DNA of 64,000 nucleotides from a phage. The stretch is taken from sequence record OZ346187.1; one strand, 5' to 3'. The position numbers were made by a program, and so were the translations under genes. Below the pieces are notes generated by a model, which made no database searches, had not been told where the DNA came from, and was given only the letters and a program-made list of their open reading frames with translations. The stretch's first letter is position 1. Every line of letters starts with the position of its first letter. Positions 1,174 to 40,728 of this stretch are shown piece by piece.

Positions 1174-1938
1174 TTGAAATTCATCTACAAAGAACACTAC
1201 CACAAAGGTGTTGTGTGGAGTCTATTTGACGGGTCTGGTGGTGCAGTTATTGACTGGGCAAAAGCTGGGTACCTGTGCCTGTGCTTTAATGCAGAAGGTG
1301 CTGACCACGGCAGTTATGCAGAGGTGATAACCGATCATCCTAACATTCACTATGTGGATTATTGGATTGACCCATGGTTCCCTCAGGAAACTTTTTGCAT
1401 GTATCCAGCTCCAGACTTTATTCTTGCATTTCCTCCGTGCACGCATTTAGCGGTATCAGGTGCTGCACATTTTAAGAAAAAGCTGGCTAAGGATCCTTTG
1501 ATCCAAATTAATGCTGTAAAGGATGCTCGGGTTGCGGAAGAGTTGGGAGAGATTTACGATTGCCCGTGGCATGTAGAGAATCCTGTAGGGGTTATGTCCA
1601 CACTGTGGCGAAAACCTGATTACCGTTTTCATCCTTCGGATTATGGTGGGTATTTACCGGAGGATGATGTAAACCCCTGGTTTCCTGAATTTATAGCTCC
1701 ACGTGATGCCTACCCAAAAATAACTTGCGGCTGGATAGGCAATGGATTTATAATCCCGGCCACAAAACCTGTCCCGCAAATAGTTGACGCGGTTAGCGGG
1801 TATTCCATGCAACACGCCAAGCTGGGTGGAAAGAGTGCAAGAACGAAGATGATCCGAAGCCTCACGCCACGTGGCTGGGCAAAAGCCGTATTCTTAGCAA
1901 ACGAGCCTGTAGTAAGGAGCAGAATTAATGGGAAGTAA
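1174..1938 (+). CDS. divergent C5-cytosine methyltransferase-like protein
   Basis: Motifs in canonical order: FDGSGG (motif I FxGxGG), FPPCTHLAVSG (motif IV PC-), WHVENPVG (motif VI ENV); probable TTG start after AGGAGA RBS (ORF-track start 1144 lies inside the terminator hairpin). Confidence 0.45.
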   Translation: MKFIYKEHYHKGVVWSLFDGSGGAVIDWAKAGYLCLCFNAEGADHGSYAEVITDHPNIHYVDYWIDPWFPQETFCMYPAPDFILAFPPCTHLAVSGAAHFKKKLAKDPLIQINAVKDARVAEELGEIYDCPWHVENPVGVMSTLWRKPDYRFHPSDYGGYLPEDDVNPWFPEFIAPRDAYPKITCGWIGNGFIIPATKPVPQIVDAVSGYSMQHAKLGGKSARTKMIRSLTPRGWAKAVFLANEPVVRSRINGK

Positions 1939-4006
1939 ATTTATGGCATCTGCATACAACCGTTTCGGTGAGCCAAACCCGAAAGCAATTAAGTATAAAA
2001 GTGGGGGAAGTGTGAAACGAGACTATCGTGATGAAAAAGAGGTTGAAACTGTAGAGACTGTTTTAGAAAATACTAAAATCGTCCCTGTCCCACAACAAAA
2101 TATCGGTCTGATGGCTGCACAATATTTTGGTGTGCGATCAGCATTGTCCCAAGAAGACGGTGTGACAGTCACTGCAACATATTTCCCATATTACGACCGA
2201 TACGGAAATCTGTCCGGTTTCAAAAAGCGTGACTGGACTATTCCTAAAGAACAAAGGGGCCACTTCTCCGTTGTTGGCATAGTAAAGGCCAACTCCCAGA
2301 TGTTTGGTCAAAAGCTGTGTGCATCTTCCAACAACCGTAAGCAGATTAACGTTTGTGAGGGAGAAGGTGATGTTATTGCAGCATGGCAGGCTGCATATCA
2401 GATACAAGTAAAAGGGATTCTCACCAACGCTAAAGCCCCGGCAAAGGTGAAGCAGTGGGCTAAAGAGGTCCAGGACGGGATCGACGCAGTTATCAACGGT
2501 GGTGATCTGGCAGGAAAACCCTGCCTGCCTTTTGTTGGAATTAACTGTGGATGTGCAAACGCAGTAGATACTTTTGCAAACAATGAGAAGTTTATCCGTA
2601 GCTATGGAACAGTTGTGCTGGCAATGGATAACGATGCAGCTAACGAGGTAGAGAAGCAAAAACACGTCATTAAAGGTGTTGAGGCCACGCACAATATCGC
2701 AGCATTTTTGATGGCTGATAACGTTTACCACGTAGAATACCCTGGTGAAGTAAATGACCCTGACGGGGTAAAAGATATCCGTGACATGCTGAAGGCTAAA
2801 AAGCTGGAAGATATTGTCAACATGTTCCGGCACCCTGTTAAATATGTGCCTGATGCTGTGTCGGATTTAGAAGACTTCTCTATCGAGTCTTTGCGGAAAA
2901 AGACTTCCAACGGGGTAGATATCAGCGCAGAGTTCCCAAAACTGCAAAAAATGCTAAAAGGCTTGCACAAAGGGACACTCGTAATGCTTACAGGGCCATC
3001 AGGGGGCGGTAAAACAACTGTAGCTAAAAAACTGGAACATTGTATTGCAAGATACCTAATGGACCCGACATGCCCGAAGGCTGATGACTATGAAGAGGAT
3101 GATCGTCTATGTATGATCCATCTTGAGGAGGACCCAGAGGAAGCAATTAACTCCTTGTATGCAAACCAGTTAGGGTTTGATGTTAAAGAGTTTGTTGAAG
3201 ATCCTAGCCAGTTTTTAACTGATCAAGAACACGCAGAGATTCACCAATCATGGGCAAAAGCTGGAAAAATCAAAGTGTTCAAACATTTCGGATCTATTCC
3301 GGTGGACGAGTTGATTACCAAGCTTAAGCAAATGGTTTGCCTGTACCATTGCCGTTATATTGTGCTGGATCACCTATCCATGGTAATTTCAGGGCTTAAT
3401 GTTAAGGATGAGCGAAAAGAACTGGACATGGCTATGACTCAGCTGGCTGCGTTTTGTAAGCAGTTTAACGTGTTTATCTTGGTGATCGCTCACCTCAAAC
3501 GTACAGAGATTGTGCCTCCTAAGGACAAGGATGGTAACCCGTTACCTTTCTGGTATCCTGTGCGAAAAGAGAATTTGCGAGGATCGGCGGGGCTTGAACA
3601 GTTGAGTTGGGTAGTCATAGGTGTCGAGGCCGAAGAAATGGTGGATCGTTCTCGTGGACGTGTCCGTCTGGTAGGTCTTAAAAACCGTCCAGCAAAAACT
3701 CTAGGTATTGCTGACACTTTGGTTATGGACCCGCACACAGGTAAGTTCCATGATGCCAGTAATTGGTACTGGGACAAAGAAATGCAAATGTTTACAGACG
3801 GAGAAGGTGGGGAGGTTGTTTGGAGACCTCAGGCTATGTTTGAGGATCAGGAGCATGCAGTTGTAGAAACACCTATGGGCAAGGTTGTGGCTGATAAGGT
3901 TGTAACTCCTACTGTTAAGCCTGTTGACACGCAGGAAGACCTCCAGTACGATGATCCATCCTCTGACCCGGTCCCTGGTTTTGAGGATGATGAAACGCCT
4001 TTTTAA
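1928..4006 (+). CDS. DNA primase-helicase (TOPRIM + DnaB-like helicase)
   Basis: TOPRIM-like NVCEGEGD; Walker A LTGPSGGGKTT; DnaB-like CRYIVLDHLSM; acidic C-terminal tail ending DDETPF. Confidence 0.8.
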   Translation: MGSKFMASAYNRFGEPNPKAIKYKSGGSVKRDYRDEKEVETVETVLENTKIVPVPQQNIGLMAAQYFGVRSALSQEDGVTVTATYFPYYDRYGNLSGFKKRDWTIPKEQRGHFSVVGIVKANSQMFGQKLCASSNNRKQINVCEGEGDVIAAWQAAYQIQVKGILTNAKAPAKVKQWAKEVQDGIDAVINGGDLAGKPCLPFVGINCGCANAVDTFANNEKFIRSYGTVVLAMDNDAANEVEKQKHVIKGVEATHNIAAFLMADNVYHVEYPGEVNDPDGVKDIRDMLKAKKLEDIVNMFRHPVKYVPDAVSDLEDFSIESLRKKTSNGVDISAEFPKLQKMLKGLHKGTLVMLTGPSGGGKTTVAKKLEHCIARYLMDPTCPKADDYEEDDRLCMIHLEEDPEEAINSLYANQLGFDVKEFVEDPSQFLTDQEHAEIHQSWAKAGKIKVFKHFGSIPVDELITKLKQMVCLYHCRYIVLDHLSMVISGLNVKDERKELDMAMTQLAAFCKQFNVFILVIAHLKRTEIVPPKDKDGNPLPFWYPVRKENLRGSAGLEQLSWVVIGVEAEEMVDRSRGRVRLVGLKNRPAKTLGIADTLVMDPHTGKFHDASNWYWDKEMQMFTDGEGGEVVWRPQAMFEDQEHAVVETPMGKVVADKVVTPTVKPVDTQEDLQYDDPSSDPVPGFEDDETPF

Positions 4007-4068: not shown

Positions 4069-7000
4069 ATGAGTATGTGGAATTTTGACTTTGAGGCCTC
4101 AGGTCTTCTGGACGAGGAAGATCTTTACTACCATTGTGGCCTGTTTAAAGAGTTGAATAAAAATAATTTTATGTTGTTTTTGCCTATCAATGATAGATCT
4201 CATTACAGTGAAGAGGAGGTTGAAAAAGCAAAACAATTTATGCTGGCAAAGCAAGATATCTATCCTAGCTGCTCTGTCCGTATTGCGGATTTCAGCCAGC
4301 TTGAATGGTGGTTAACCGGGAACTCCGATTGGTCACCCACATCATTAAGTTGTCACAACTGTTTTAGTTATGACTTTATCTTGATGGAGAAGCTGTCTGG
4401 TATTCATTTTGATATGTTCCGTGATCCCAAGTGTATGGGGACAATCAATAATCATCAGGTGAACCTGTTCGACACTCTGCCAATGAGTCGTATACTATGG
4501 CCCGACAGACCGTTACCTAAAGGATGCCCTGATTCTGTATACAATCCTGTTACAAAACGTATGCAGCAGGTAGGTCCTCATGGCCTAATGGCGTGGGGGT
4601 ACGCTTTAGGAAACCAGAAGGTTAAAATTGATGACTGGAGAAATTTACCTCTGTGGAAGTATGTTGATCGTGTATTCGAGGACGTTATCATCCAGGAGCT
4701 GCTCTGGAAAGAGCTGGTAGCGGAATCAAAAGGTGTATTCTACGGCAAATCTGACATGCAGAACTTTATGTACGATCCAGCCAAAGAGAAGCCGAAAGGG
4801 TTCAAGAAGATTACCTGGAAGAATGCATTACGCCGAGGCATGCTGCAGCACTTCCTGATGGAGCTGCAGGCCCGTCAGGGTGTATACTTCGACATAGATG
4901 GAGCTATTGCTTTACGTGACCGTTGCGATGCGTGGATGAAAGAAATCGCTGATCGTGTTGAACCACAACTACCTTTAAAAGAGCTGTCAATGTCTCAGCG
5001 GCCCAAGTTCCCTGAAAAGCCGTTTAACCAAGACGGGACAATCTCTAATAATGGTTGGAAATGGTTAAAAGATAAGCTTGGCTATCCTGTAGACATGAGT
5101 GCTTTAGAGTTCAAAGCCCCGCCTAAGCGAGCATTTACCTCTACAGGAGATGTCAGCAAGATGGGGATAAAATGGTGTGAAGAGATGGGCTGCAAAGACC
5201 CCGATAAGATGGCTGATTTCTTGAGAGGCTATATTAAGGGCACCTCCACACCACAACCCTTACCTAAAGAGCTGATGGATCAGGCAATAAGTGATCTGCA
5301 GCAGAAGCGAATGCCTGACTGCAAGATACCTATGAAAATCAGCAATCAGGACGACATCAAGCGATACCTAATCAGTGCTGGTTGGCTCCCAACAATGTGG
5401 AGAACTAAAGATGTAACTAAAGACAGCAAGAAGAAAGCTTTACCTGATGCAGATGTTGATGCACGAGTATATGCATATATGGACGAGCTTTTGGAGTCAG
5501 AGTATTGTGACCTAATTATCAACTTCTGGAACAAAACTGATGCTAAGTTCCAGACAACCGTGCACAAGTTCCGAAGCTTTCCTAACTCCGAAAGGATTAA
5601 AAAGGAAGTATTCGGGAAAATACGTAGAAAAGCCAGGGCACTTATTACTTCTCCGCAACTGAAAGATACGTTTGGACACCTATGCCCAAATCTTGAAAAA
5701 TTGAACGGAGAGATGGCTAAAGATATCGTCTTGTGGTTATCATTGCGAAACCGCAGATCGGTCCTTGATCCAATCAAGGAGGATAAGGTTGATACTGGTC
5801 TTCTTAATCACCCACGTTTGAAGATTGACCATAAGCTTCCTGCTAAAAGCTCTGGATTAACAAACACTTCCAGACAGAAACACAGTATTTGTGCAAACAT
5901 GCCTAAACCATCTCCTAAAGTGGTTATGGGTAAAGAGATGCGTAGTCTGTGGGGTGTTCCTCCGGGATACTTTGAGATCGGTATTGACGGGTCCAACTTA
6001 GAGCAGCTTATCGGGGCTTGGGGTGCCTTTGAGTTCGACAACGGCCTGTATTATGATGTTGTAAGTAATGGCGATGCACACTGTTATTCAGGAGATACAC
6101 AAATTCTCACGGAGAAAGGGTGGGTGAGGTTTGAAGATCTTGATCCGGGAACACAAGTGTTCCAGTACGATCACAACACCTCGTCAATGAACCTTGTTAC
6201 TCCATTAAATTACGTTAAGCGTAGTTATTGTGGGGATATGTATCATTTCCACAACAGTAGTGTGGATTTTATGGTTACAGATCAACACAGGATGCTGACT
6301 GTGGATCACAGAAGCAATAAATTGTTTGAAGATTTGGCAAAAGACCTGAAAGCAGGTAAAGGGTCTAATTCAGGAAGAAGGTTTATCCATGCGGCAGAGT
6401 TTTATGGGAATACAACCTTATCTCCTGCCCAGGTTAATTTGCTTATTGCTATTCACGATGATGGGCACTTGCATACAAATAAGGACGGCAGCATCGTGTG
6501 CAGGATTCAGGTCGGAAAGGGAAGAAAAGTTGCAACGCTTTTAGATACTTTTTCTGCTCTAAGCCTTAGTTATGTAGAGCAGAGCGGGAAAACCACAAAA
6601 GGGGGCTTACTGGCGAGAAGGTTCCAATTCCACGTTCCGTCCTGGGTATTTGAGTTTTTGGACAACAATAAGGATTTCACCTATAACCTGATGAACCTTG
6701 ATAAAGAATCTAAAAACCTGTTTATAGCTTCTTTATCTAACTGGGACGGGTGGGTATCTTCCGAAGGTGGAAAGGTTGCTTACTACTCCCAGGCCGAGTG
6801 CAGGAAGAAATCTGTAGAGGTGGTGTCTGCGCTGGCTACTCAGTGTGGTTTACGGAATAATACGGTGGCGATTCACAAAAAAGGTCGTGCCGTGCAGCAC
6901 AGAATCACAATTGGTAGCAAACAGAGAGCAGGGTTGCTGACACTATCTAAAGAGTCTGTCGAGGTGAGCGGTTCTTTGGTTTATTGCGTTACCGTCCCTT

Positions 7001-7401
7001 CTGGAGCAATCATTGTGAGAAGGAATGGTAAAGTGGCAGTGTGCGGTAACTGTAATAACGCCAAAGCTTACTCTTCTGTAGCAGGCAAGGAGATTTCCCG
7101 TAACGATGGTAAACCTATCACGTATGGGGTTATGTATGGGGCACAAAAAGATAAAGTTGCAGATATGCTGGACATCTCCCCAGAGTTGGGACAAAGGGTA
7201 ATCGATGCACTCTGGGATGCCAACCCAGGTCTTAAGGGGCGCAAAGAGGATCTGGAGAAATTCTGGGAAGCAACAGGTAAGAAGTTTATCTACTCTTTTG
7301 ATGGTCATGCTATCTGGACCCGATCTAAACACTCTTTACTTAATGCATACCAACAAAATGGCGGTGCATCGTTGTGTGACTTAGTTGGAATACTCATGCA
7401 C
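4069..7401 (+). CDS. DNA polymerase, family A, exon 1 (contains an in-frame intein; ORF reads through to a stop at 7467 inside the intron)
   Basis: 3'-5' exo motifs FDFEASGL (Exo I) and CHNCFSYDF (Exo II); motif B-like RNDGKPITYGVMYGAQ; ORF ends ...GILMH just before the expected HDE of motif C. Confidence 0.85.
6082..7050 (+). mobile_element. intein with LAGLIDADG homing-endonuclease domain inside DNA polymerase
   Basis: Starts CYSGDTQILTEKG (intein block A), TDQHRML (block B TxxH), LAGLIDADG-like LLIAIHDDGH and LFIASLSNWDGW, ends ...VAVCGN followed by Cys (+1). Confidence 0.65.
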
Positions 7402-7737
7402 CACCAGATGGTGAAGCGTGGGTGGTACGATGAAGGTGTTCGTCGTATTATTTATTACCATAAATAACATTGTGGCTTCATAGAGTAATCTATGTCGAAT
7501 AACCTCTTTAACTGCGGGAAGCCTAAACCTTATGGCAAGGTAATCCGCAACGAAGCGCTCAAAAGAGCGAACGCTCAGAGGCCATTCCGAAAGGAAGTAG
7601 ACCAGCAAGTGCGGTCGAAATGGGAGGATTCCTGTGGTTGCTTATCATAGGAATATGAGATGGTCCGATCCTACGTGAAAACGTATGGCTATGCACGTAA
7701 TGGTGCGGGGTAGCTTAACGACCTACCTGAACTATTG
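7402..7737 (+). mobile_element. group I intron without ORF, interrupting DNA polymerase at motif C (boundaries approximate)
   Basis: P-like AACTGCGGGAAG, Q-like AATCCGCAAC, R-like CTCAGAGGCCA, S-like AGATGGTCCGATCC; joining exons gives ...ILMH-DEYQLQV. Confidence 0.6.
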
Positions 7738-10262: not shown

Positions 10263-10554
10263 AAACATCACCCCAGCAGGGTTCTTAAAAGTATACCGTG
10301 AACTGCTATATACTACAGAGGACAGTGTTCTAGAGTATCCAGAATATCTTTTGCTGTATAAGTATCTGCAGGAGGCTGGTGAAAATCTGCCAGTTAGTGC
10401 AGAAGGTGGTCCAAACTGGATATACAGCGCATGGAGAAAGGTTGACATTCTCCCAGACCCAGGTAAAGATATGGTAGTTTGGCAGCTTATCAACAACATC
10501 GGGATTCCAATCTTTGATGAAGCTGTTAAAATCTATTTTGAACTTGACGATTAA
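10252..10554 (+). CDS. hypothetical protein
   Basis: ORF-track 10234-10554; ATG at 10252 after GCAGGAGAAG RBS. Confidence 0.45.
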   Translation: MKTENITPAGFLKVYRELLYTTEDSVLEYPEYLLLYKYLQEAGENLPVSAEGGPNWIYSAWRKVDILPDPGKDMVVWQLINNIGIPIFDEAVKIYFELDD

Positions 10555-10571
10555 TATCAGGAGACCTTAAG

Positions 10572-10817
10572 ATGACTGAAGCAGTTGCTCGCGCAGGACA
10601 GAAAGTACGTTGTGTTGAAGTAGGTTTTGGTGGCAAAGGGTGTCAAAACTTGACTCAAGGCAAGGAATATGCTGTTATCTCTGGTGGTGGCGACGAAAGT
10701 ATTGTGTTCGAGGGCCACATCCTGGATGCTGAAAACTTTGAAATCTTTGACGACGATGGGGATCCGATCACCTGCCTGCTGGACGGGAATTGGGGAACTT
10801 TCGAAGTGATTGGCTAA
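10572..10817 (+). CDS. hypothetical protein
   Basis: ORF with AGGAGA RBS. Confidence 0.5.
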   Translation: MTEAVARAGQKVRCVEVGFGGKGCQNLTQGKEYAVISGGGDESIVFEGHILDAENFEIFDDDGDPITCLLDGNWGTFEVIG

Positions 10818-10827
10818 CAAATACCTA

Positions 10828-10856
10828 TTGTAATTTACAGAAGGGGATGCTAAAAT
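10828..10856 (+). promoter_or_regulatory. sigma70-like promoter TTGTAA-17-TAAAAT
   Basis: -35/-10 hexamers with 17-nt spacer upstream of ORF 10901. Confidence 0.5.
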
Positions 10857-10900
10857 AGTGTCTCCTTCTATGTTGTTCAAATAAAATCGGAGATTCCATA

Positions 10901-11269
10901 ATGGAACAAATGAACGATCAAGAGTCGGTTGCGATGAACGAGCAAGAACAACCTCAAGAATTTTTCTTAGGGTTAAGTAAAGATCAAGTGTCTCTTTTGC
11001 TAGTGCTTTCTTCTTTCATGGGAAGACTTCAGGAGCTCACACAACAACCGGAGGCTGAACAATTATTTCAGGCTCTGCGTGAAGAAGAAAAATATCGTCG
11101 TTTGGACTATGCCTTAGGTTGGGTAGCTCAACAACGAGATATGCTGATGGCCCTCTCTGGGACCACAAGTTTTGCAATGGGCCTGTTGGCTCAAGTTCAG
11201 GACAAATTAATTCAAGCAGGGTTTGCACACACGGCAAACACTAACGAAGAACAAGGAGACAAAGAATGA
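10901..11269 (+). CDS. hypothetical protein
   Basis: ORF with GGAG RBS; no recognisable motif. Confidence 0.5.
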   Translation: MEQMNDQESVAMNEQEQPQEFFLGLSKDQVSLLLVLSSFMGRLQELTQQPEAEQLFQALREEEKYRRLDYALGWVAQQRDMLMALSGTTSFAMGLLAQVQDKLIQAGFAHTANTNEEQGDKE

Positions 11270-12492
11270 GCGTTATTCAACAATTCGCTAACCCGATGAA
11301 TCCGCGTGAAACTGTTTTACTGGCTCACGGCATGATTAAACGCGTCAGCATCAAGCCTATCAAAGGTGCTGATCCTACAACAGGTATTAAAACCACTGTG
11401 TGGCAAGGTAAGAAAATTGAATCCAGCCACACCATCTCTTTACTGATTTCTGAACTGGATTCCTCTGATAACCTACTTCAAGGTGGTGAAGAAGTTTGGA
11501 TCAGTATGGGCGATAAGCTGCTTAAACCGGGTCATCAAGACTCTGTCTCTGTTAAAATTGATGACAAGTGGGAAACCGTAACGCCAGGATGGATCGTAAA
11601 TATCCCTTTGAAGGCAAACGAGCATAACGGTAAGACCTACTACAAAGGCTCACTGGCTAAGATGGTTAAGCTGGGTGCAGGAGAGGCTCCAGCAGCGACT
11701 CAGCAGCAAAAACAGCAACAAGGTGCACAATCACAAGGCCAGAAGCAGAAACCTCAGCAGAATGCCAATCAGGACGTTTTACGCATCTATGGTGATGTGA
11801 CTCAGATTGTTGGCAACGTGGTTACTGTAAATGACCACAAGATTGGCGAAGGTGCTATGGTTGTAACTGATGAGCAGCTTAAAGACCTGGTGGTAGGTGG
11901 TCGTGTTGCAGCCATTGTTGACAAAGACACTGGAAACATTATCAGTGGTTTCAAGGCCTATCCTCCTAAGGCAGAGAACGGCACTCAAGGCTCCGGTGGC
12001 AAGCGTAAATCCTCTTACGACCCTATCGGTGTGGAAACGGGGCATAGCATCAATGCGTTGCAGATCATCCTGGATCGCGGGTTTAAGGTAGACGACCCAC
12101 TGGGCGTGGCTAAAACACTGCACGTAGTCACCATTGAGCTTAAGAAAGAGTATGCTCAAGCCACCAACCGAACTGAAGATGAAGTAGGTGCCAGTGTCGG
12201 TAATGCGGTGTTGAACGCTTGTCGCCGTATTGACAAGAAAACGAAAGTTGATGATTTTGCAGCGGCAATTACTGCAGAAGCAAAAGATGTCTTGACTAAT
12301 CTGGCTGAGCCGTTGTACGATTGGATCAAGAACGGTGCTGGGTCAACTGACCATCAAGAACCTCAGGCTGCCAAACAGGAAGCAGCTCCACAGCAAAACA
12401 CTGTAGACGCTCCTCCTGTAAATGATGGGGAAGATGACCCGATGGATCAGAATCCAGCACAGTACGCCTTTGATGATGACATCCCTTTTTAA
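11266..12492 (+). CDS. putative ssDNA-binding protein with SSB-type acidic C-terminal tip
   Basis: C-terminus ...AQYAFDDDIPF matches the E. coli SSB tail (DFDDDIPF); Gln-rich low-complexity linker QQQKQQQGAQSQGQKQKPQQ. Confidence 0.5.
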   Translation: MSVIQQFANPMNPRETVLLAHGMIKRVSIKPIKGADPTTGIKTTVWQGKKIESSHTISLLISELDSSDNLLQGGEEVWISMGDKLLKPGHQDSVSVKIDDKWETVTPGWIVNIPLKANEHNGKTYYKGSLAKMVKLGAGEAPAATQQQKQQQGAQSQGQKQKPQQNANQDVLRIYGDVTQIVGNVVTVNDHKIGEGAMVVTDEQLKDLVVGGRVAAIVDKDTGNIISGFKAYPPKAENGTQGSGGKRKSSYDPIGVETGHSINALQIILDRGFKVDDPLGVAKTLHVVTIELKKEYAQATNRTEDEVGASVGNAVLNACRRIDKKTKVDDFAAAITAEAKDVLTNLAEPLYDWIKNGAGSTDHQEPQAAKQEAAPQQNTVDAPPVNDGEDDPMDQNPAQYAFDDDIPF

Positions 12493-12507
12493 CAATTAGT
12501 TAACATA

Positions 12508-12535
12508 GCCCTGCCCGAAAGGGTGGGGCATTTTT
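12508..12535 (+). terminator. rho-independent terminator hairpin GCCCTGCCC-GAAA-GGGTGGGGC + T-run (copy 2 of 2)
   Basis: Same hairpin as at 1129-1155, directly downstream of the SSB-like gene. Confidence 0.6.
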
Positions 12536-12554
12536 GTATAAGGAGATCTGAAAA

Positions 12555-12971
12555 ATGACATTAGAAGATATCATTGTTAAACCTGAGAACTATGACCAAT
12601 ACAACCTGTCAACTCAATCTGTAGACCTTGGATGCGCCACAGTTAGTGCGTGGCTGGTTAATGGAAAAGAGCTGGACAAGTGCTTAGAAGCTCACATGTC
12701 TGTTAACAAGTTTCTGGATGAAAATACTCACTGGCTTGAGGGTGCTGGAGTATATGCTTCATGGTTGGAGAGCATGGGCTTTGACTATCAATCTGATGAA
12801 GGGTGGTGGAGCTATCTGGCTATCTGTCCAGAAACACTGCAATGCTTCATGAAATACTCTGAAGATCTTGAGTACCGAGCGGTGGTTGATAGTGCTATTG
12901 CCCGTTATAGCCGTAAACCTTTTTCCCATGACATTAAAACTGTGGAAGAATTTGTTGAAGTTTTCTGTTGA
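12555..12971 (+). CDS. hypothetical protein
   Basis: ORF with AGGAGA RBS. Confidence 0.5.
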   Translation: MTLEDIIVKPENYDQYNLSTQSVDLGCATVSAWLVNGKELDKCLEAHMSVNKFLDENTHWLEGAGVYASWLESMGFDYQSDEGWWSYLAICPETLQCFMKYSEDLEYRAVVDSAIARYSRKPFSHDIKTVEEFVEVFC

Positions 12972-12999
12972 CACAGGTTGAAAGGTGTGCAATTATAAC
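12968..12999 (+). promoter_or_regulatory. sigma70-like promoter (TTGACA -35; -10 around AATTATAAC)
   Basis: Consensus -35; A/T-rich -10 candidates at 17-20 nt. Confidence 0.45.
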
Positions 13000-13067
13000 T
13001 TCATAAAACGGGAGGACGCGATGAACGAAGAAAACTGGGATGTATAACTAACAGGAGACCACTGCCC

Positions 13068-13265
13068 ATGATTTATCGAATCCGTGTAAGAGAAGATGCA
13101 CCAGGCTGTTACTTTGACTGGCGTGGGTGGTGGTTTCTCCACCCAATGGATGGACTCACAGATAGAATGCTGGATGCTGCCCTTTATACAGATACCGACA
13201 TAGAATATAATCTCTATCTGAAGGACGGTATAGATAACGGTCTATTTGAAGCAATTCCTGTGTAA
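13068..13265 (+). CDS. hypothetical protein
   Basis: ORF with AGGAGA RBS. Confidence 0.45.
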   Translation: MIYRIRVREDAPGCYFDWRGWWFLHPMDGLTDRMLDAALYTDTDIEYNLYLKDGIDNGLFEAIPV

Positions 13266-13333
13266 GAGACTGTGATAGCCATGTTTTATGATCTTCCTGT
13301 AGCACCACCACCTGTTGAACCTGGAGAACTAAG

Positions 13334-13753
13334 ATGATCTATGAAATGCCAAAACTGATTCGTGACGATGCCCAAAACCACACCATTATTATGGGTAAAC
13401 GCATGAATATCCTTTGCCGTAACGATTTCTGTGGTGTAGAATACGTTGCAGACTACTTCGGTGAGAATGGTAAACACCCTGTTCAGTTCTTCCTTGACCA
13501 TGAGGATAACATTATCTGGGAGTTTGAAACTGAAGATATCCGCAACCTCTTCATCTTCCTCGGTGTCAAGGTTAAGGCCAATTTCGCGGAAGGTGAGTGC
13601 GACGATTGTGGATTTTATGAGGTGACAGACTTCTATCTCCCGAGTGGCAAGAACATTTACTATGAGAGTCACTTCGGAAACACCAACATGCCTCAAAGCT
13701 GGGAAGAATTTTTCAGTATCGTAGAAGAGGAGCTGGCATACCGTGATTATTGA
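13334..13753 (+). CDS. hypothetical protein (Cys-rich)
   Basis: ORF with GGAGAA RBS. Confidence 0.5.
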   Translation: MIYEMPKLIRDDAQNHTIIMGKRMNILCRNDFCGVEYVADYFGENGKHPVQFFLDHEDNIIWEFETEDIRNLFIFLGVKVKANFAEGECDDCGFYEVTDFYLPSGKNIYYESHFGNTNMPQSWEEFFSIVEEELAYRDY

Positions 13754-37285: not shown

Positions 37286-38374
37286 TTAAAACTCCCAAAT
37301 TTCTTCTTCAGCGTCGTTAACAGTTGTGTTGACGCGGTAGTCAGTGTTCGACATTTCTTGGTTCGCCGTCTGTTGCAATGAAGGTTTCATCCACACCTGC
37401 ATAAACGGTAGCGGGTCCTTTGTTGGCGGCACAAAGTCTTTGTCGATGTCGTAGTAATCATAAATCGGTGAGCAGTTATAGTCAACCCATTCTTTAAGCA
37501 ACGGTGAGTTAAGACCTATAATCGCTCTTCCTTCGCTGAAAATATAGTCACTCCAACCGTACTCTTTGGTTCGCACTTCATCAAGAATCTCTTTTAACTC
37601 CCCTTTTATCTCAAGGAAGCTTTTCTCCCATGCGGGATCATTAAGCAGGATATCAATGATGGCAAAATCACCTTTCGAATGTAGCATTTCGTCAAGCATG
37701 ATTTTTTGAACAAGCTGCGCCACCTGAACAAAGATACCCTGTTCAGCTACTGCGAAAGTGCATGCAAAACTTGCAATAAACTCAATACTTTCCAGAGCTA
37801 AAAGTGCAAAAAGCGCTCTAAGAATGCATTTCCGCACAACATCTTCTTCAACACTAGAAGGATCCAGTCGGTATTTTGCACCAATAACCTCAAGCTCTTG
37901 CATGTATTTGACAATAACGCCGGATCTGCTCAGAACGTTTTGGTTTTCCTGAATCTCTTCTATAATCTCACGGGCATTGGGGAGGCATTGTCTAACAATC
38001 TCTGAGTAAGTTAGTGCGTGAAGAACTTCAATCTCCGACTGTTTCATCAATAGAGTGAAAAGCTCACTATTAGTGATGAATGGTGAAAAGAGGCAGATGA
38101 TCGATCTTGCCGCAACGCTATCAGCCTCCCATTGCCACATCAAGGTCTGAACCATCACATCATAAGTTGACTTTGAGCATGTTACAAAATCTGAAATAGA
38201 TTGCGACAAATCCACTTCATCCTCTGCCCAGTCTTGTTCTTTTTGTTTTTTGTACAGTTCGAACAGTTGTGGATATTTTTTGTTGATAGAGTCGTACATA
38301 CCCATTTGCTGTCCCAGAAACAGCGGATAGTCACCAGTTTTATGAGCGGTGTTCTCAGCATTAAATACAGCCAT
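37286..38374 (-). CDS. nrdB: ribonucleotide reductase class Ia small subunit
   Basis: Ferritin-like di-iron pattern, C-terminal ...EEEIWEF; ORF-track start 38434 trimmed to ATG 38374 after nrdA stop and hairpin. Confidence 0.9.
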   Translation of the reverse strand: MAVFNAENTAHKTGDYPLFLGQQMGMYDSINKKYPQLFELYKKQKEQDWAEDEVDLSQSISDFVTCSKSTYDVMVQTLMWQWEADSVAARSIICLFSPFITNSELFTLLMKQSEIEVLHALTYSEIVRQCLPNAREIIEEIQENQNVLSRSGVIVKYMQELEVIGAKYRLDPSSVEEDVVRKCILRALFALLALESIEFIASFACTFAVAEQGIFVQVAQLVQKIMLDEMLHSKGDFAIIDILLNDPAWEKSFLEIKGELKEILDEVRTKEYGWSDYIFSEGRAIIGLNSPLLKEWVDYNCSPIYDYYDIDKDFVPPTKDPLPFMQVWMKPSLQQTANQEMSNTDYRVNTTVNDAEEEIWEF

Positions 38375-38391
38375 TATTCTACCTCTAAAAT

Positions 38392-38405
38392 GGGGCCGAA
38401 GCCCC
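38392..38405 (-). promoter_or_regulatory. intergenic hairpin GGGGC-CGAA-GCCCC between nrdA and nrdB
   Basis: Perfect 5-bp GC stem with tetraloop in the 38-nt nrdA-nrdB spacer. Confidence 0.45.
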
Positions 38406-38412
38406 TTTAAAA

Positions 38413-40728
38413 TTATAGTGCACAGCTTTCGCAATACGGATCTTCAACTGAACTATCTGCAATCAAAGGATAGTTCTTTCTGGTTTCATCTTCAGCCTGT
38501 TTCTTGGCATGAAGTTCCTCTGCCAAGGAGTCACCCGCACCAACCCTAGAGTTTAAATAATACCATGTCTTCATTCCGAATTTAGTGGCACGGATAAGGT
38601 ACCCTAGCTGCTCCTTCATTGAAATTTTACCATCTTTCAACTTGGTGTAGTCTATGTATAAATCCGCGCTGATTGCCTGACCTGTGAATTTTTGAATCAC
38701 AGCATACATATCGATCATGTCGTTAGTATCAACGTCCCAAGCCGAAGTGTAATACTCTTTCAACTCATCATAGTCAGGAACGATAAACAGCACCTGCCCT
38801 TGTGGCGACTTTTTAAAGATAATGTGCTCACGGACAGGATAAACCCCGTTAGTGGTGTTTGTTGCCAGCGAAGAGCTTTCATTAGGCATATATGCTTCAA
38901 GAACGCTATTACGTAGCCCACCATTTTCAACGATTTCTTTACGTAACCCTTCCCAATCCTGTTTAAGAGAAGGATCTTTCACCACGCTATCGACCTCTTT
39001 GTTATAGGTGTCGATTGGTAACCAACCTTCTGGATATTTTGTTTTATGCATCCACTCGCAGACACCACGCTCTTTTGCCAACCGTAAACTTGCCTTATGC
39101 AAGCTGTAGCTGTGAAGTTCTGCAAGATCGTGAACGAGCTGTTTACTTTCAGGAGACCCGTAAGTAACCTTGTGGCTGGCAATAAAATGTGCAACATTGG
39201 TAAGGCCAACCCCGATGGATCTGCGTTTTTTAACTGTGCTTTCCATATTTTCATACGGATATGTCATGATTTCCATAACATTGTCAATCATAAGCACCGT
39301 ATAGTATGCAACATCCTCATACTCCTCTGGAGTAACCCTCCCAGCTACAAGAGATGACAGGAAGCACAATGCAACCTCTCCATCATCAGCATCGTACTTG
39401 AAGATATTACGCATATCTGAATAGCCTTTTGTCGGGAGGGCTATTTCTGCACACAGGTTGCTTGAATAGATCACATCTTTAAAAGGTGTATGTCTATTCA
39501 TCTCATCTGTCCAGTATACGTACAGCCTTCCCACCTCAGTGCGCTGCGTGATCAGTTCAACAGCAAGATCTCTAGCTCGGATCCATGTTTTAGGAATACT
39601 GTCATCTTTAGCAATACGATCAACCTCTGCATCAAACTCCTCTATAGACATGGTGAAGATACCCTCATGCAGTTGAGGCGCGTGCTTATAAGAAACAAGC
39701 ATCCAATCTAAATTCTTAGCCACACGGTTGATAAACGACCTATTAATACCGATGGAGTAGTCCATGGTGTTGATTCTTTTTGAAGCAACAGTCATAGGGT
39801 TTCTCAAACGGATTAGCTCATCAATCTGCGGGTCCAGTGCAAGGAATGATACTGTTGCAGAACCACCACGTGATTGTTGTCTGTTCTCCTTAACCCCAGC
39901 ATCAATACCTCGATAATATGGAATCTTACCCATATGTTTAATAGTGTTACCACGAACACCATCGCCTGCAGATCTTGAGGATAAGTAGTAGCCGATACCT
40001 GCTTGGTTAACCGTCATTGTGTACGCAACTTCACGTGCCACACCAATAGATTTTGCTGTATCGTCAGCTTTTATTACACAACAAGATGCATACCCTGTCT
40101 TACCTGTGCGCAGCCCGTTTAAGTACGGTGTCGGGGCATTGATCTTTAAGTCGGACAGGTAAGTGTATAATTTTACAACATCGTTGATACGACGTTCTTT
40201 CGGCATATTCTTCATGACAGCCATTGCTATCCCCATAAACATCATCTGGGGAGATTCAAACAAGGTGTCTTTAAGAGTATCCTTGATCCCGTATTTGTCG
40301 CGAAACTGTTTAAGGACTGCATAGCCATAACCGAGATCTTTACTGTGATCAATAACAGTGCCTAAAGTGTTTAACTCGGTAAAGCTATAACCCATATCCT
40401 CCCAATACCCTTTCTCAACCATGTCGTTGTAAAATGATGGTAAGGAAGGGATCTTTGTAAACCCTCCAAAAGCCTCTTTATAAATCTGACCAATAAGAAC
40501 ACGACCAGCCATACGGGAATGTGCTTCGTCTTTACGGCTAACACAGGAGTCTATGATAGCTTGGTTAACTTCTTTGGTTGTACATCCATCATACAGTCGT
40601 TTGTATGCATCCAGTGCAATGTGTGACCAATTGCCGTTACCGTCGTCACCGAAAATAGCTGCCTTATTTAAACGTTCTGGATCGAATGCCACTTCACATC
40701 CGTTGCTTTTAATTACCTTGGTGATCAA
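38413..40728 (-). CDS. nrdA: ribonucleotide reductase class Ia large subunit
   Basis: ATP-cone N-terminus, active-site NLCAEIALPT, C-terminal Cys pair CESC. Confidence 0.92.
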   Translation of the reverse strand: MITKVIKSNGCEVAFDPERLNKAAIFGDDGNGNWSHIALDAYKRLYDGCTTKEVNQAIIDSCVSRKDEAHSRMAGRVLIGQIYKEAFGGFTKIPSLPSFYNDMVEKGYWEDMGYSFTELNTLGTVIDHSKDLGYGYAVLKQFRDKYGIKDTLKDTLFESPQMMFMGIAMAVMKNMPKERRINDVVKLYTYLSDLKINAPTPYLNGLRTGKTGYASCCVIKADDTAKSIGVAREVAYTMTVNQAGIGYYLSSRSAGDGVRGNTIKHMGKIPYYRGIDAGVKENRQQSRGGSATVSFLALDPQIDELIRLRNPMTVASKRINTMDYSIGINRSFINRVAKNLDWMLVSYKHAPQLHEGIFTMSIEEFDAEVDRIAKDDSIPKTWIRARDLAVELITQRTEVGRLYVYWTDEMNRHTPFKDVIYSSNLCAEIALPTKGYSDMRNIFKYDADDGEVALCFLSSLVAGRVTPEEYEDVAYYTVLMIDNVMEIMTYPYENMESTVKKRRSIGVGLTNVAHFIASHKVTYGSPESKQLVHDLAELHSYSLHKASLRLAKERGVCEWMHKTKYPEGWLPIDTYNKEVDSVVKDPSLKQDWEGLRKEIVENGGLRNSVLEAYMPNESSSLATNTTNGVYPVREHIIFKKSPQGQVLFIVPDYDELKEYYTSAWDVDTNDMIDMYAVIQKFTGQAISADLYIDYTKLKDGKISMKEQLGYLIRATKFGMKTWYYLNSRVGAGDSLAEELHAKKQAEDETRKNYPLIADSSVEDPYCESCAL

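What the first reader, a model, noticed from the sequence alone, without database searches (positions are those of the whole stretch)
11266..12492. SSB-like protein ending in the E. coli SSB interaction tip DDDIPF
The last six residues are identical to the host SSB tip that recruits many replication and repair proteins, preceded by a Gln-rich linker. The N-terminal region does not obviously resemble the bacterial SSB OB-fold, and the protein is much longer than host SSB. It may hijack host SSB-interacting partners; the primase-helicase also ends in a related acidic ...DDETPF tail.
Basis: partly seen in the sequence, partly recalled or inferred. Interest (0 to 1): 0.5.

Follow-up and report, generated by a model that had tools for sequence, protein, structure and literature searches.

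The report
Phage's own SSB with host-type tip
This gene of an rV5-like E. coli phage very probably encodes the phage's own single-stranded-DNA-binding protein, built on an unusual scaffold but ending in the same docking peptide as the host SSB; a 2026 preprint has already described a 99%-identical protein this way.

Summary
ORF 11266..12492 (+) encodes 408 aa ending FDDDIPF, the last seven residues of E. coli SSB. The primase-helicase (1928..4006) ends FEDDETPF.

The tip is not chance. About 5e-6 such ends are expected in the window, and P407 and F408 are 99% and 96% conserved across a family of 249 sequence clusters.

The phage is a Vequintavirus. A complete close relative has no other SSB. 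The gene order primase-helicase, polymerase, this gene holds down to about 30% identity.

The protein is 405/408 identical to Bas52_0087. A preprint (10.64898/2026.04.29.721553) calls that protein SSB-like with a conserved C-tip and shows it is needed to trigger the DRT10 defence, with links to host ExoI.

ssDNA binding and partner binding remain untested. Verdict: real, well explained, already known. In passing, a homing-endonuclease-associated 15-aa cap follows the IPF tip in many phage SSBs.

The parts
11266..12492 (+). Whole CDS, 408 aa: non-canonical phage SSB, the ortholog of Bas52_0087 (PHROG 4477)
   Evidence: PHROG 4477 E=2.9e-173; 405/408 identical to Bas52_0087
11266..11685 (+). OB fold 1 (aa 1-140), the predicted main ssDNA-binding domain. 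Conserved aromatic and basic positions: K42, H55, W78, K97, W102, H120 (Tyr or Trp in most members), K123, Y126
11686..11772 (+). Gln-rich disordered linker (aa 141-169; 13 Q of 29)
   Evidence: pLDDT below 50; composition
11773..11964 (+). Small second OB-like barrel (aa 170-233; beta1-3, short helix, beta4-5). Optional: present in 46 of 142 complete family members
11965..12015 (+). Short Gly/Lys/Ser linker (aa 234-250)
   Evidence: pLDDT below 50 for aa 237-250
12016..12333 (+). Four-helix domain (aa 251-356). It is the family signature, with D252, G255, G259, H260, N263, G308 and G312 strongly conserved. It holds both DRT10 escape substitutions (D252V, Y351C). Proposed oligomerisation module
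12334..12468 (+). Acidic, Pro/Gln/Ala-rich disordered linker (aa 357-401; net charge -8)
   Evidence: pLDDT below 50; composition; the only region of the related complete genome that E. coli SSB (aa 134-178) matches by tblastn
12469..12489 (+). C-terminal tip FDDDIPF, identical to the last 7 residues of E. coli SSB
   Evidence: P407 99% and F408 96% conserved; 117 of 150 listed representatives end x-Pro-Phe/Trp, and 14 of the remainder are truncated fragments
12508..12539 (+). Intrinsic terminator directly after the gene
   Evidence: 9-bp stem with 7 G-C pairs followed by a T run; annotated as a terminator in phage HdK5
10901..11269 (+). Upstream 122-aa ORF whose stop overlaps the start codon (ATGA), probably co-translated. 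PHROG 7310, function unknown
   Evidence: conserved next to the long-form genes in L006, L007 and L011; no Pfam hit
1928..4006 (+). T7 gp4-like primase-helicase. Its last 8 residues, FEDDETPF (nt 3980-4003), resemble the SSB tip
   Evidence: DnaB_C E=1.9e-13; tail conserved only in close relatives
4069..7467 (+). DNA polymerase of the same replication module, a candidate phage partner of the acidic tails
   Evidence: annotated DNA polymerase in relatives; conserved synteny

Best explanation
The gene encodes the Vequintavirus's own single-stranded-DNA-binding protein, built on a scaffold unrelated in sequence to bacterial SSB.

Inferred mechanism:
- OB fold 1, helped in the long forms by a small second OB fold, binds ssDNA at the phage replication fork.
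- The conserved four-helix domain makes the protein oligomeric or cooperative.
- The acidic disordered linker presents the C-terminal FDDDIPF peptide. That peptide docks into the hydrophobic-pocket-plus-basic-residue sites that normally receive the host SSB tip (ExoI, RecQ, PriA, the chi subunit and others), and probably also into sites on the phage's own polymerase and primase-helicase. Phage ssDNA therefore looks like SSB-coated host ssDNA to these enzymes.

Shown here: the sequence, the predicted folds, the conservation and the gene context.
Shown by others: the near-identical Bas52_0087 is required for efficient activation of the DRT10 defence during infection.
Inferred only: ssDNA binding, oligomerisation and every partner contact.
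For: (1) Tip identity and selection. FDDDIPF equals the E. coli SSB end. P407 and F408 are among the most conserved residues in a family of 249 clusters at 50% identity. Many members copy up to 13 terminal residues of the E. coli SSB end as I recall it (NEPPMDFDDDIPF; only the last nine, MDFDDDIPF, are confirmed by PMC3159472).

(3) Domain order. Folded DNA-binding part, then a disordered acidic linker, then the tip, as in bacterial SSB.

(4) Context. The order primase-helicase, DNA polymerase, small ORFs, this gene is conserved down to about 30% identity. The gene lies between terminators in the early replication region.

(5) The SSB slot is empty. The complete, curated genome of the 99%-similar phage MaxTheCat has a helicase, primase-helicase, polymerase, exonucleases and ligase but no annotated SSB. 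E. coli SSB by tblastn matches only the tail of this gene.

(6) Independent work. Phold and AF2 led the authors to call Bas52_0087 SSB-like, with two OB folds and the C-tip. Both escape mutants (D252V, Y351C) are missense rather than null, and ExoI dosage modulates the response.

(7) Some GenBank records already name family members SSB.

(8) Grafting the SSB tip on T4 gp32 was used to test its role in stimulating ExoI (PMC3159472). This shows that the tip can be put on a different scaffold.
Against: No biochemistry exists for ssDNA binding, oligomeric state or any partner.

There is no sequence-level homology to any SSB family.

Expressing Bas52_0087 alone neither harmed E. coli nor triggered DRT10, so strong interference with host SSB partners is not evident.

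In a sizeable fraction of related phages the tip is followed by a 15-aa cap, so Phe is not the free C-terminus. Known SSB-tip pockets hold the alpha-carboxyl group of that Phe. Either the free end is dispensable for these phages, or the cap is removed.
Confidence: 0.72

Rival explanations
1. T7-style internal use. The acidic tail ending in Phe serves mainly the phage's own replisome. The SSB tail and the similar primase-helicase tail compete for one basic patch on the phage DNA polymerase, as T7 gp2.5 and gp4 do on gp5. The likeness to the host tip would then be secondary. This is compatible with the protein being an SSB; it differs only in who the partner is.
For: In the window and in the complete related genome the only two ORFs ending in PF after an acidic run are this protein and the primase-helicase. 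T7 gp2.5 ends ...EADEDGDF and gp4 ends ...DWSNDTDF. The gp2.5 tail anchors on the polymerase's front basic patch, and a gp4 DTDF peptide is seen on gp5 in PDB 6P7E (PMC12339929). The replication set is T7-like: one primase-helicase, one polymerase, and no clamp or clamp loader annotated.
Against: The helicase tail is not conserved with the SSB tip. Relatives at 72% identity end ...EDEDCPF, while distant relatives end ...EGSY or ...VEEY even though their SSB still ends DDDIPF. The SSB tip matches the bacterial consensus far more closely than any generic acidic tail would need to, up to 13 identical residues. The ExoI link reported in the preprint points to a host partner.
Confidence: 0.35
2. 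Decoy. The protein is not a working SSB. It soaks up host SSB partners, for example ExoI or RecQ, through its tip to protect phage DNA ends or to disable host repair and defence.
For: It carries the host-identical tip. The preprint proposes competition with or displacement of SbcB (ExoI).
Against: Two OB folds with conserved aromatic and basic residues and a conserved helical domain are far more than a decoy peptide needs. The gene fills the otherwise empty SSB slot in the replication module. Expression alone has no effect on host viability. Capped alleles are frequent.
Confidence: 0.08
3. Annealing or recombination mediator. Like T7 gp2.5, the protein also or mainly promotes single-strand annealing, standing in for the recombinase that these phages appear to lack.
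Against: No specific similarity to any annealing-protein family. The RecO match is of the generic OB type (82 aligned residues at 8.0 A rmsd in the full-model search).
Confidence: 0.15
4. The likeness of the tail to the host SSB tip is fortuitous.
For: None beyond the shortness of the motif.
Against: Expected occurrences in the window are 4.8e-6. Pro-Phe is 99% and 96% conserved, and the consensus D-F-D-D-D-[ILV]-P-F holds across 117 of 150 cluster representatives, most of the rest being truncated.
Confidence: 0.01

Closest known systems
Bas52_0087 (QXV84166.1) of Escherichia phage RudolfGeigy (Bas52), described in bioRxiv 10.64898/2026.04.29.721553
   Same: 405/408 identical, same length, same genomic position. 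Described there as SSB-like with two OB folds, a disordered C-terminus and the FDDDIPF C-tip. [quoted passage not shown] Escape substitutions D252V and Y351C fall in the four-helix domain defined here.
   Different: Three substitutions only (K369T, G388E, A401S in Bas52). The preprint gives no family-wide analysis. In the sections read (methods 26, results 36, discussion) it does not describe the helical domain as a separate conserved module, and it does not discuss the primase-helicase tail, the missing SSB slot or the capped alleles.
Bacterial SSB (E. coli SSB; Pfam PF00436, TIGR00621)
   Different: No sequence homology in the OB part. It has an extra second OB fold and a four-helix domain. 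It is 408 aa against 178. Oligomerisation is probably through the helical domain rather than through OB-OB contacts (inference). The family is essentially absent from bacterial genomes: one MAG contig among 185,579 species genomes.
T7 gp2.5 with T7 gp4
   Same: A phage-specific OB-fold SSB with an acidic tail ending in Phe, paired with a primase-helicase whose tail resembles it. The replisome set is similarly minimal.
Canonical phage and plasmid SSBs with the host tip (for example the Vibrio phage 1.106.O SSB and the Drexlerviridae SSBs)
   Same: They carry the same DDDIPF-type tip, and some carry the same 15-aa cap after it.
   Different: Those have a recognisable bacterial-type or small single OB domain and no helical domain.

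Membership tests
PHROG 4477 / Bas52_0087 family (OB fold + four-helix domain + SSB tip) | Full-length sequence match to the family profile | tested here: met
   phrog_4477 E=2.9e-173 over aa 1-408; 99% identical to Bas52_0087; short-form members also match phrog_4477
PHROG 4477 / Bas52_0087 family (OB fold + four-helix domain + SSB tip) | Conserved four-helix domain with the D252, G259-H260, N263, G308 and G312 motifs | tested here: met
   All present in the window protein
PHROG 4477 / Bas52_0087 family (OB fold + four-helix domain + SSB tip) | C-terminal D-D-D-[ILV]-P-F tip | tested here: met
Bacterial SSB family (Pfam PF00436 / TIGR00621) | Sequence match of the OB domain to the family model | tested here: not met
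   No PF00436 hit even at E<=10. TIGR00621 gives E=0.24, 11.7 bits against a cut-off of 53.95, and only over the tail. The PDB profile search finds no SSB.
Bacterial SSB family (Pfam PF00436 / TIGR00621) | OB fold superimposable on SSB | tested here: met
Bacterial SSB family (Pfam PF00436 / TIGR00621) | Disordered linker followed by the acidic tip D-D-D-I-P-F | tested here: met
Bacterial SSB family (Pfam PF00436 / TIGR00621) | High-affinity ssDNA binding; homotetramer formed by the OB domains | not testable with these tools
   Needs purified protein
T7 gp2.5-like SSB | Sequence or structural match to gp2.5 or DUF2815 | tested here: inconclusive
T7 gp2.5-like SSB | Acidic C-terminal tail ending in an aromatic residue, with a matching tail on the primase-helicase | tested here: met
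T7 gp2.5-like SSB | The tail binds the phage DNA polymerase | not testable with these tools
Phage N4 SSB (gp45) | Sequence or profile similarity | tested here: not met
   hhalign probability 0.6%; N4 SSB ends ...SLFGKK, with no acidic tip

The most novel reading that the evidence does not exclude
The family may be more than another SSB. Its most conserved part is a four-helix domain with no detectable relative, and that domain is where the DRT10 escape mutations fall. It could be a new oligomerisation or partner module that defence systems read out.

Separately, the DNA encoding the IPF tip is a homing site for HNH/EndoVII endonuclease genes. These leave a conserved 15-aa cap (A-P-[IV]-G-L-Q-[YF]-G...) after the tip in three unrelated SSB scaffolds, and the cap persists even where no endonuclease remains. 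If the cap is a functional peptide that masks or re-targets the SSB tip, it would be an undescribed way for phages, or their selfish elements, to switch SSB-partner recruitment on and off.
Probability: 0.2. Interest if true: 0.6.

Novelty: already known. Interest (0 to 1): 0.3.

Why it matters
It assigns a function to a conserved 'hypothetical protein' found in at least 359 sequenced phage genomes (tblastn). These are rV5-, phi92-, PVP-SE1-, CR3- and phiTE-like myophages, several of which are used for biocontrol and therapy.

It fills the missing SSB slot of their replisome. It also explains why this protein is a trigger for a reverse-transcriptase defence system that is tuned by host ExoI.

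More generally, it shows that the bacterial SSB tip is a portable module kept intact on an unrelated scaffold. That gives a clean system for asking which host SSB partners a virulent phage needs.

For this scan the finding is real, but it has already been reported.

Tried and rejected
- Sequence searches of the whole protein and of the separate N-terminal and helical domains against Pfam, NCBIfam, PHROGs and PDB sequences gave nothing beyond PHROG 4477 and tail-only matches.
- Phage N4 SSB, which is similar in length to the short forms, was tested as a relative and rejected.
- The scan of bacterial genomes was meant to give hosts, so that tip variants (IPF or LPF) could be compared with host SSB tips. 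It found one MAG contig only, so the test could not be done.
- tblastn with two LPF-ending metagenomic members found only phages of Gammaproteobacteria.
- Recent DNA transfer of the tail from the host ssb gene: no blastn match of the tail-coding 163 nt in 5,426 complete E. coli genomes.
- Stop-codon read-through or a hidden extension in this window: rejected, because TAA is followed directly by a terminator.
- A literature search for the cap sequence found nothing relevant.

Full report
**Observation.** The window contains an ATG-initiated ORF at 11266..12492 on the + strand. It encodes 408 aa ending ...NPAQYAFDDDIPF, followed by TAA. [quoted passage not shown] From the amino-acid composition of the 219 ORFs in the window, 4.8e-6 ORFs ending in DDDIPF are expected. 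The primase-helicase ORF (1928..4006, 692 aa, DnaB_C domain) ends ...PGFEDDETPF. These are the only two ORFs in the window, and in a complete related genome, that end in Pro-Phe after an acidic run. The strongly Gln-rich stretch is internal (aa 141-169, 13 Q of 29). The linker in front of the tip is Ala/Gln/Asp/Pro-rich with net charge -8.

**Source.** The window is 97-99% identical to Vequintavirus genomes, the rV5-like E. coli myophages of about 135-140 kb, such as A6-1 and MaxTheCat. The gene is labelled 'hypothetical protein' in nearly all of them.

**Family.**
- A word-indexed search found 56 homologues.
- A profile search of 1.84 billion cluster representatives found 249 clusters at E<=1e-3 and 167 at E<=1e-10.
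- Of the 150 representatives listed, 117 end in x-Pro-Phe/Trp, 8 in another acidic tail ending in Phe or Trp, and 7 in PF plus one residue. Four have PF plus a roughly 15-aa extension, and 14 are truncated fragments.
- The tip consensus is D-F-D-D-D-[ILV]-P-F. P407 (99%) and F408 (96%) are as conserved as the core glycines G108 and G312.
- Several members carry up to 13 terminal residues of what I recall as the E. coli SSB end (NEPPMDFDDDIPF; the last nine are confirmed).
- Most members are 260-300 aa. Only 46 of 142 complete ones have the middle domain.
- The family occurs in 359 GenBank phage records: Vequintavirinae, phi92- and phAPEC8-like phages, PVP-SE1, CR3/GAP31 and phiTE-like phages.
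- It occurs in only one MAG contig among one genome for each of 185,579 bacterial and archaeal species. It is absent from 5,426 complete E. coli genomes at the DNA level. It therefore belongs to virulent phages.

**Structure.**
- AlphaFold2 on the family alignment gives three folded domains: aa 1-140, 170-233 and 253-356. The linkers at 141-169, 237-250 and 359-403 are disordered.
- A separate model of aa 1-140 reached pLDDT 95.6 and pTM 0.86.
- OB1 keeps conserved aromatic positions (H55, W78, W102, 120, Y126) and basic positions (K42, K97, K123), as ssDNA-binding OB surfaces do.
- None of the domains matches Pfam SSB, TIGR00621 or any PDB sequence. The only links to SSB models run through the tail.

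**Context.**
- The order primase-helicase, DNA polymerase, a few small ORFs, this gene is kept in relatives down to about 30% identity.
- A 122-aa ORF (10901..11269, PHROG 7310) overlaps the start codon by ATGA. An intrinsic terminator follows the stop.
- The complete, curated genome of MaxTheCat lists a DNA helicase, primase-helicase, polymerase, DnaQ-like and 5' exonucleases, EndoVII and a ligase. It lists no SSB, clamp or recombinase.

**Literature.** A bioRxiv preprint of 30 April 2026 (10.64898/2026.04.29.721553) studies Bas52_0087 of BASEL phage Bas52 (RudolfGeigy, MZ501102). That gene is the ortholog, 405/408 identical in protein. The authors report the following:
- a Phold 'SSB-like' call;
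- an AF2 model with two OB folds and a disordered C-terminus bearing FDDDIPF;
- two DRT10 escape mutants, D252V and Y351C, placed at a 'putative oligomerization interface';
- no toxicity or DRT10 activation from expression alone;
- enhancement of restriction by the wild-type allele in trans, but much less by the mutant alleles;
- attenuation of defence by ExoI (SbcB) overexpression.

They propose that the protein competes with or displaces ExoI. Both substitutions lie in my four-helix domain. D252 is Asp in 120 of 142 members, whereas Y351 is variable. A few GenBank records already name family members SSB: JLBYU08, KP2025, ESCO9/25/32, Mt1B1_P17, Eryne, BME3 and phAPEC8_ev052.

**Mechanism.** The best-supported reading is that this is the phage's replicative SSB on a non-canonical scaffold. 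One or two OB folds bind ssDNA. The helical domain gives oligomerisation or cooperativity. The acidic linker presents a tip that fits the known SSB-tip sites, which hold the Phe side chain in a hydrophobic pocket and its alpha-carboxyl on a basic residue.

Who the partners are is open. Host partners are suggested by the exact bacterial consensus and by the ExoI genetics. Phage partners are suggested by the parallel with T7, where gp2.5 (...DGDF) and gp4 (...DTDF) share a site on the polymerase, and by the FEDDETPF tail on the primase-helicase. That helicase tail is limited to close relatives...EDEDCPF at 72% identity, and ...EGSY or ...VEEY in distant ones. It therefore cannot explain why the SSB tip is conserved across the whole family.

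A pure decoy role is unlikely given the conserved OB folds and the empty SSB slot. Chance is excluded.

**A complication seen in passing.**
- In about a third of Vequintavirus records an endonuclease VII/HNH-type gene sits directly after this gene.
- In SophiaRose the roughly 640-bp element brings a recoded copy of the tip codons. It extends the protein by 15 aa (...EFCDDIPF-APVGLQYGKSRIHAL), and the endonuclease ORF starts 29 nt before the new stop. The old tip codons survive in degenerate form as the 3' end of the endonuclease ORF.
- In bov25_3 the endonuclease is present but the stop after IPF is kept.
- The same cap ends SSBs of other scaffolds: a canonical E. coli-like SSB of Vibrio phage 1.106.O with no endonuclease nearby, and the small Drexlerviridae SSBs of ACG-M12 and morffagbaw with HNH genes. 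In all, 224 phage records have it.
- In many viable phages the Phe is therefore not the free C-terminus. That either argues against a strict need for canonical tip docking or implies that the cap is removed. Nothing on this was found in the literature library.

**Verdict.** The SSB-like interpretation is supported at the level of fold, context and independent work. The host-hijack idea is reasonable but untested. Because a near-identical protein has been described in the same terms, the finding is already known. This analysis adds the family-wide picture, the definition of the helical signature domain, the empty SSB slot, the limited spread of the helicase tail, and the endonuclease-linked cap.

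Noticed in passing
Relatives of window 12466-12500; L028 (SophiaRose) 2150-2833; L032 (bov25_3) 2200-2814: A homing-endonuclease gene of the EndoVII/HNH type is inserted exactly at the tip-coding 3' end of the SSB-like gene in roughly a third of Vequintavirus records. It brings a recoded copy of the tip codons. In some phages it adds 15 aa (APVGLQYGKSRIHAL) after IPF, with the endonuclease ORF starting 29 nt before the new stop. The window itself has no insertion.
   Followed up: partly
L034 1102-1563 (ACG-M12), L035 1006-1563 (Vibrio phage 1.106.O), L036 1072-1975 (morffagbaw): The same 15-aa cap (A-P-[IV]-G-L-Q-[YF]-G-x(3-4)-[ILM]-[YH]-x-[LI]) follows the IPF tip in unrelated SSB scaffolds. 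These include a canonical E. coli-like SSB with no endonuclease next to it. In all, 224 phage records match. Its function is unknown, and no mention was found in the paper library.
   Followed up: partly
window 4069-7467: The DNA polymerase ORF is 1132 aa, against 925 aa in phage HdK5. It carries an intein-like insert starting CYSGDTQILTEKGW at about aa 672, with a weak Hint_2 match (E=8.8e-4, below the cut-off). MaxTheCat annotates its polymerase as two joined pieces. No Pfam DNA_pol_A match at E<=0.001.
   Followed up: partly
window 10901-11269: A 122-aa ORF is translationally coupled to the SSB-like gene through an ATGA overlap. It belongs to PHROG 7310 (unknown function) and has no Pfam hit. 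It is conserved next to the long-form family members and is labelled 'putative single-stranded DNA-binding protein' in phage JLBYU08. It may be a partner subunit.
   Followed up: partly
GenBank records MG0656xx matched by window 10500-13500: Sixteen to twenty-one records named 'Campylobacter phage', with C. jejuni given as host, are 97-99% identical to E. coli Vequintaviruses. Host labels or cultures are probably mixed up.
   Followed up: no
window 37286-38434 (- strand): The ribonucleotide reductase beta-subunit ORF ends ...AEEEIWEF. This is the other acidic-aromatic C-terminal tail in the window. From my own knowledge it is presumably the usual R2 tail that binds R1, and it is unrelated to the SSB tip.
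   Followed up: no
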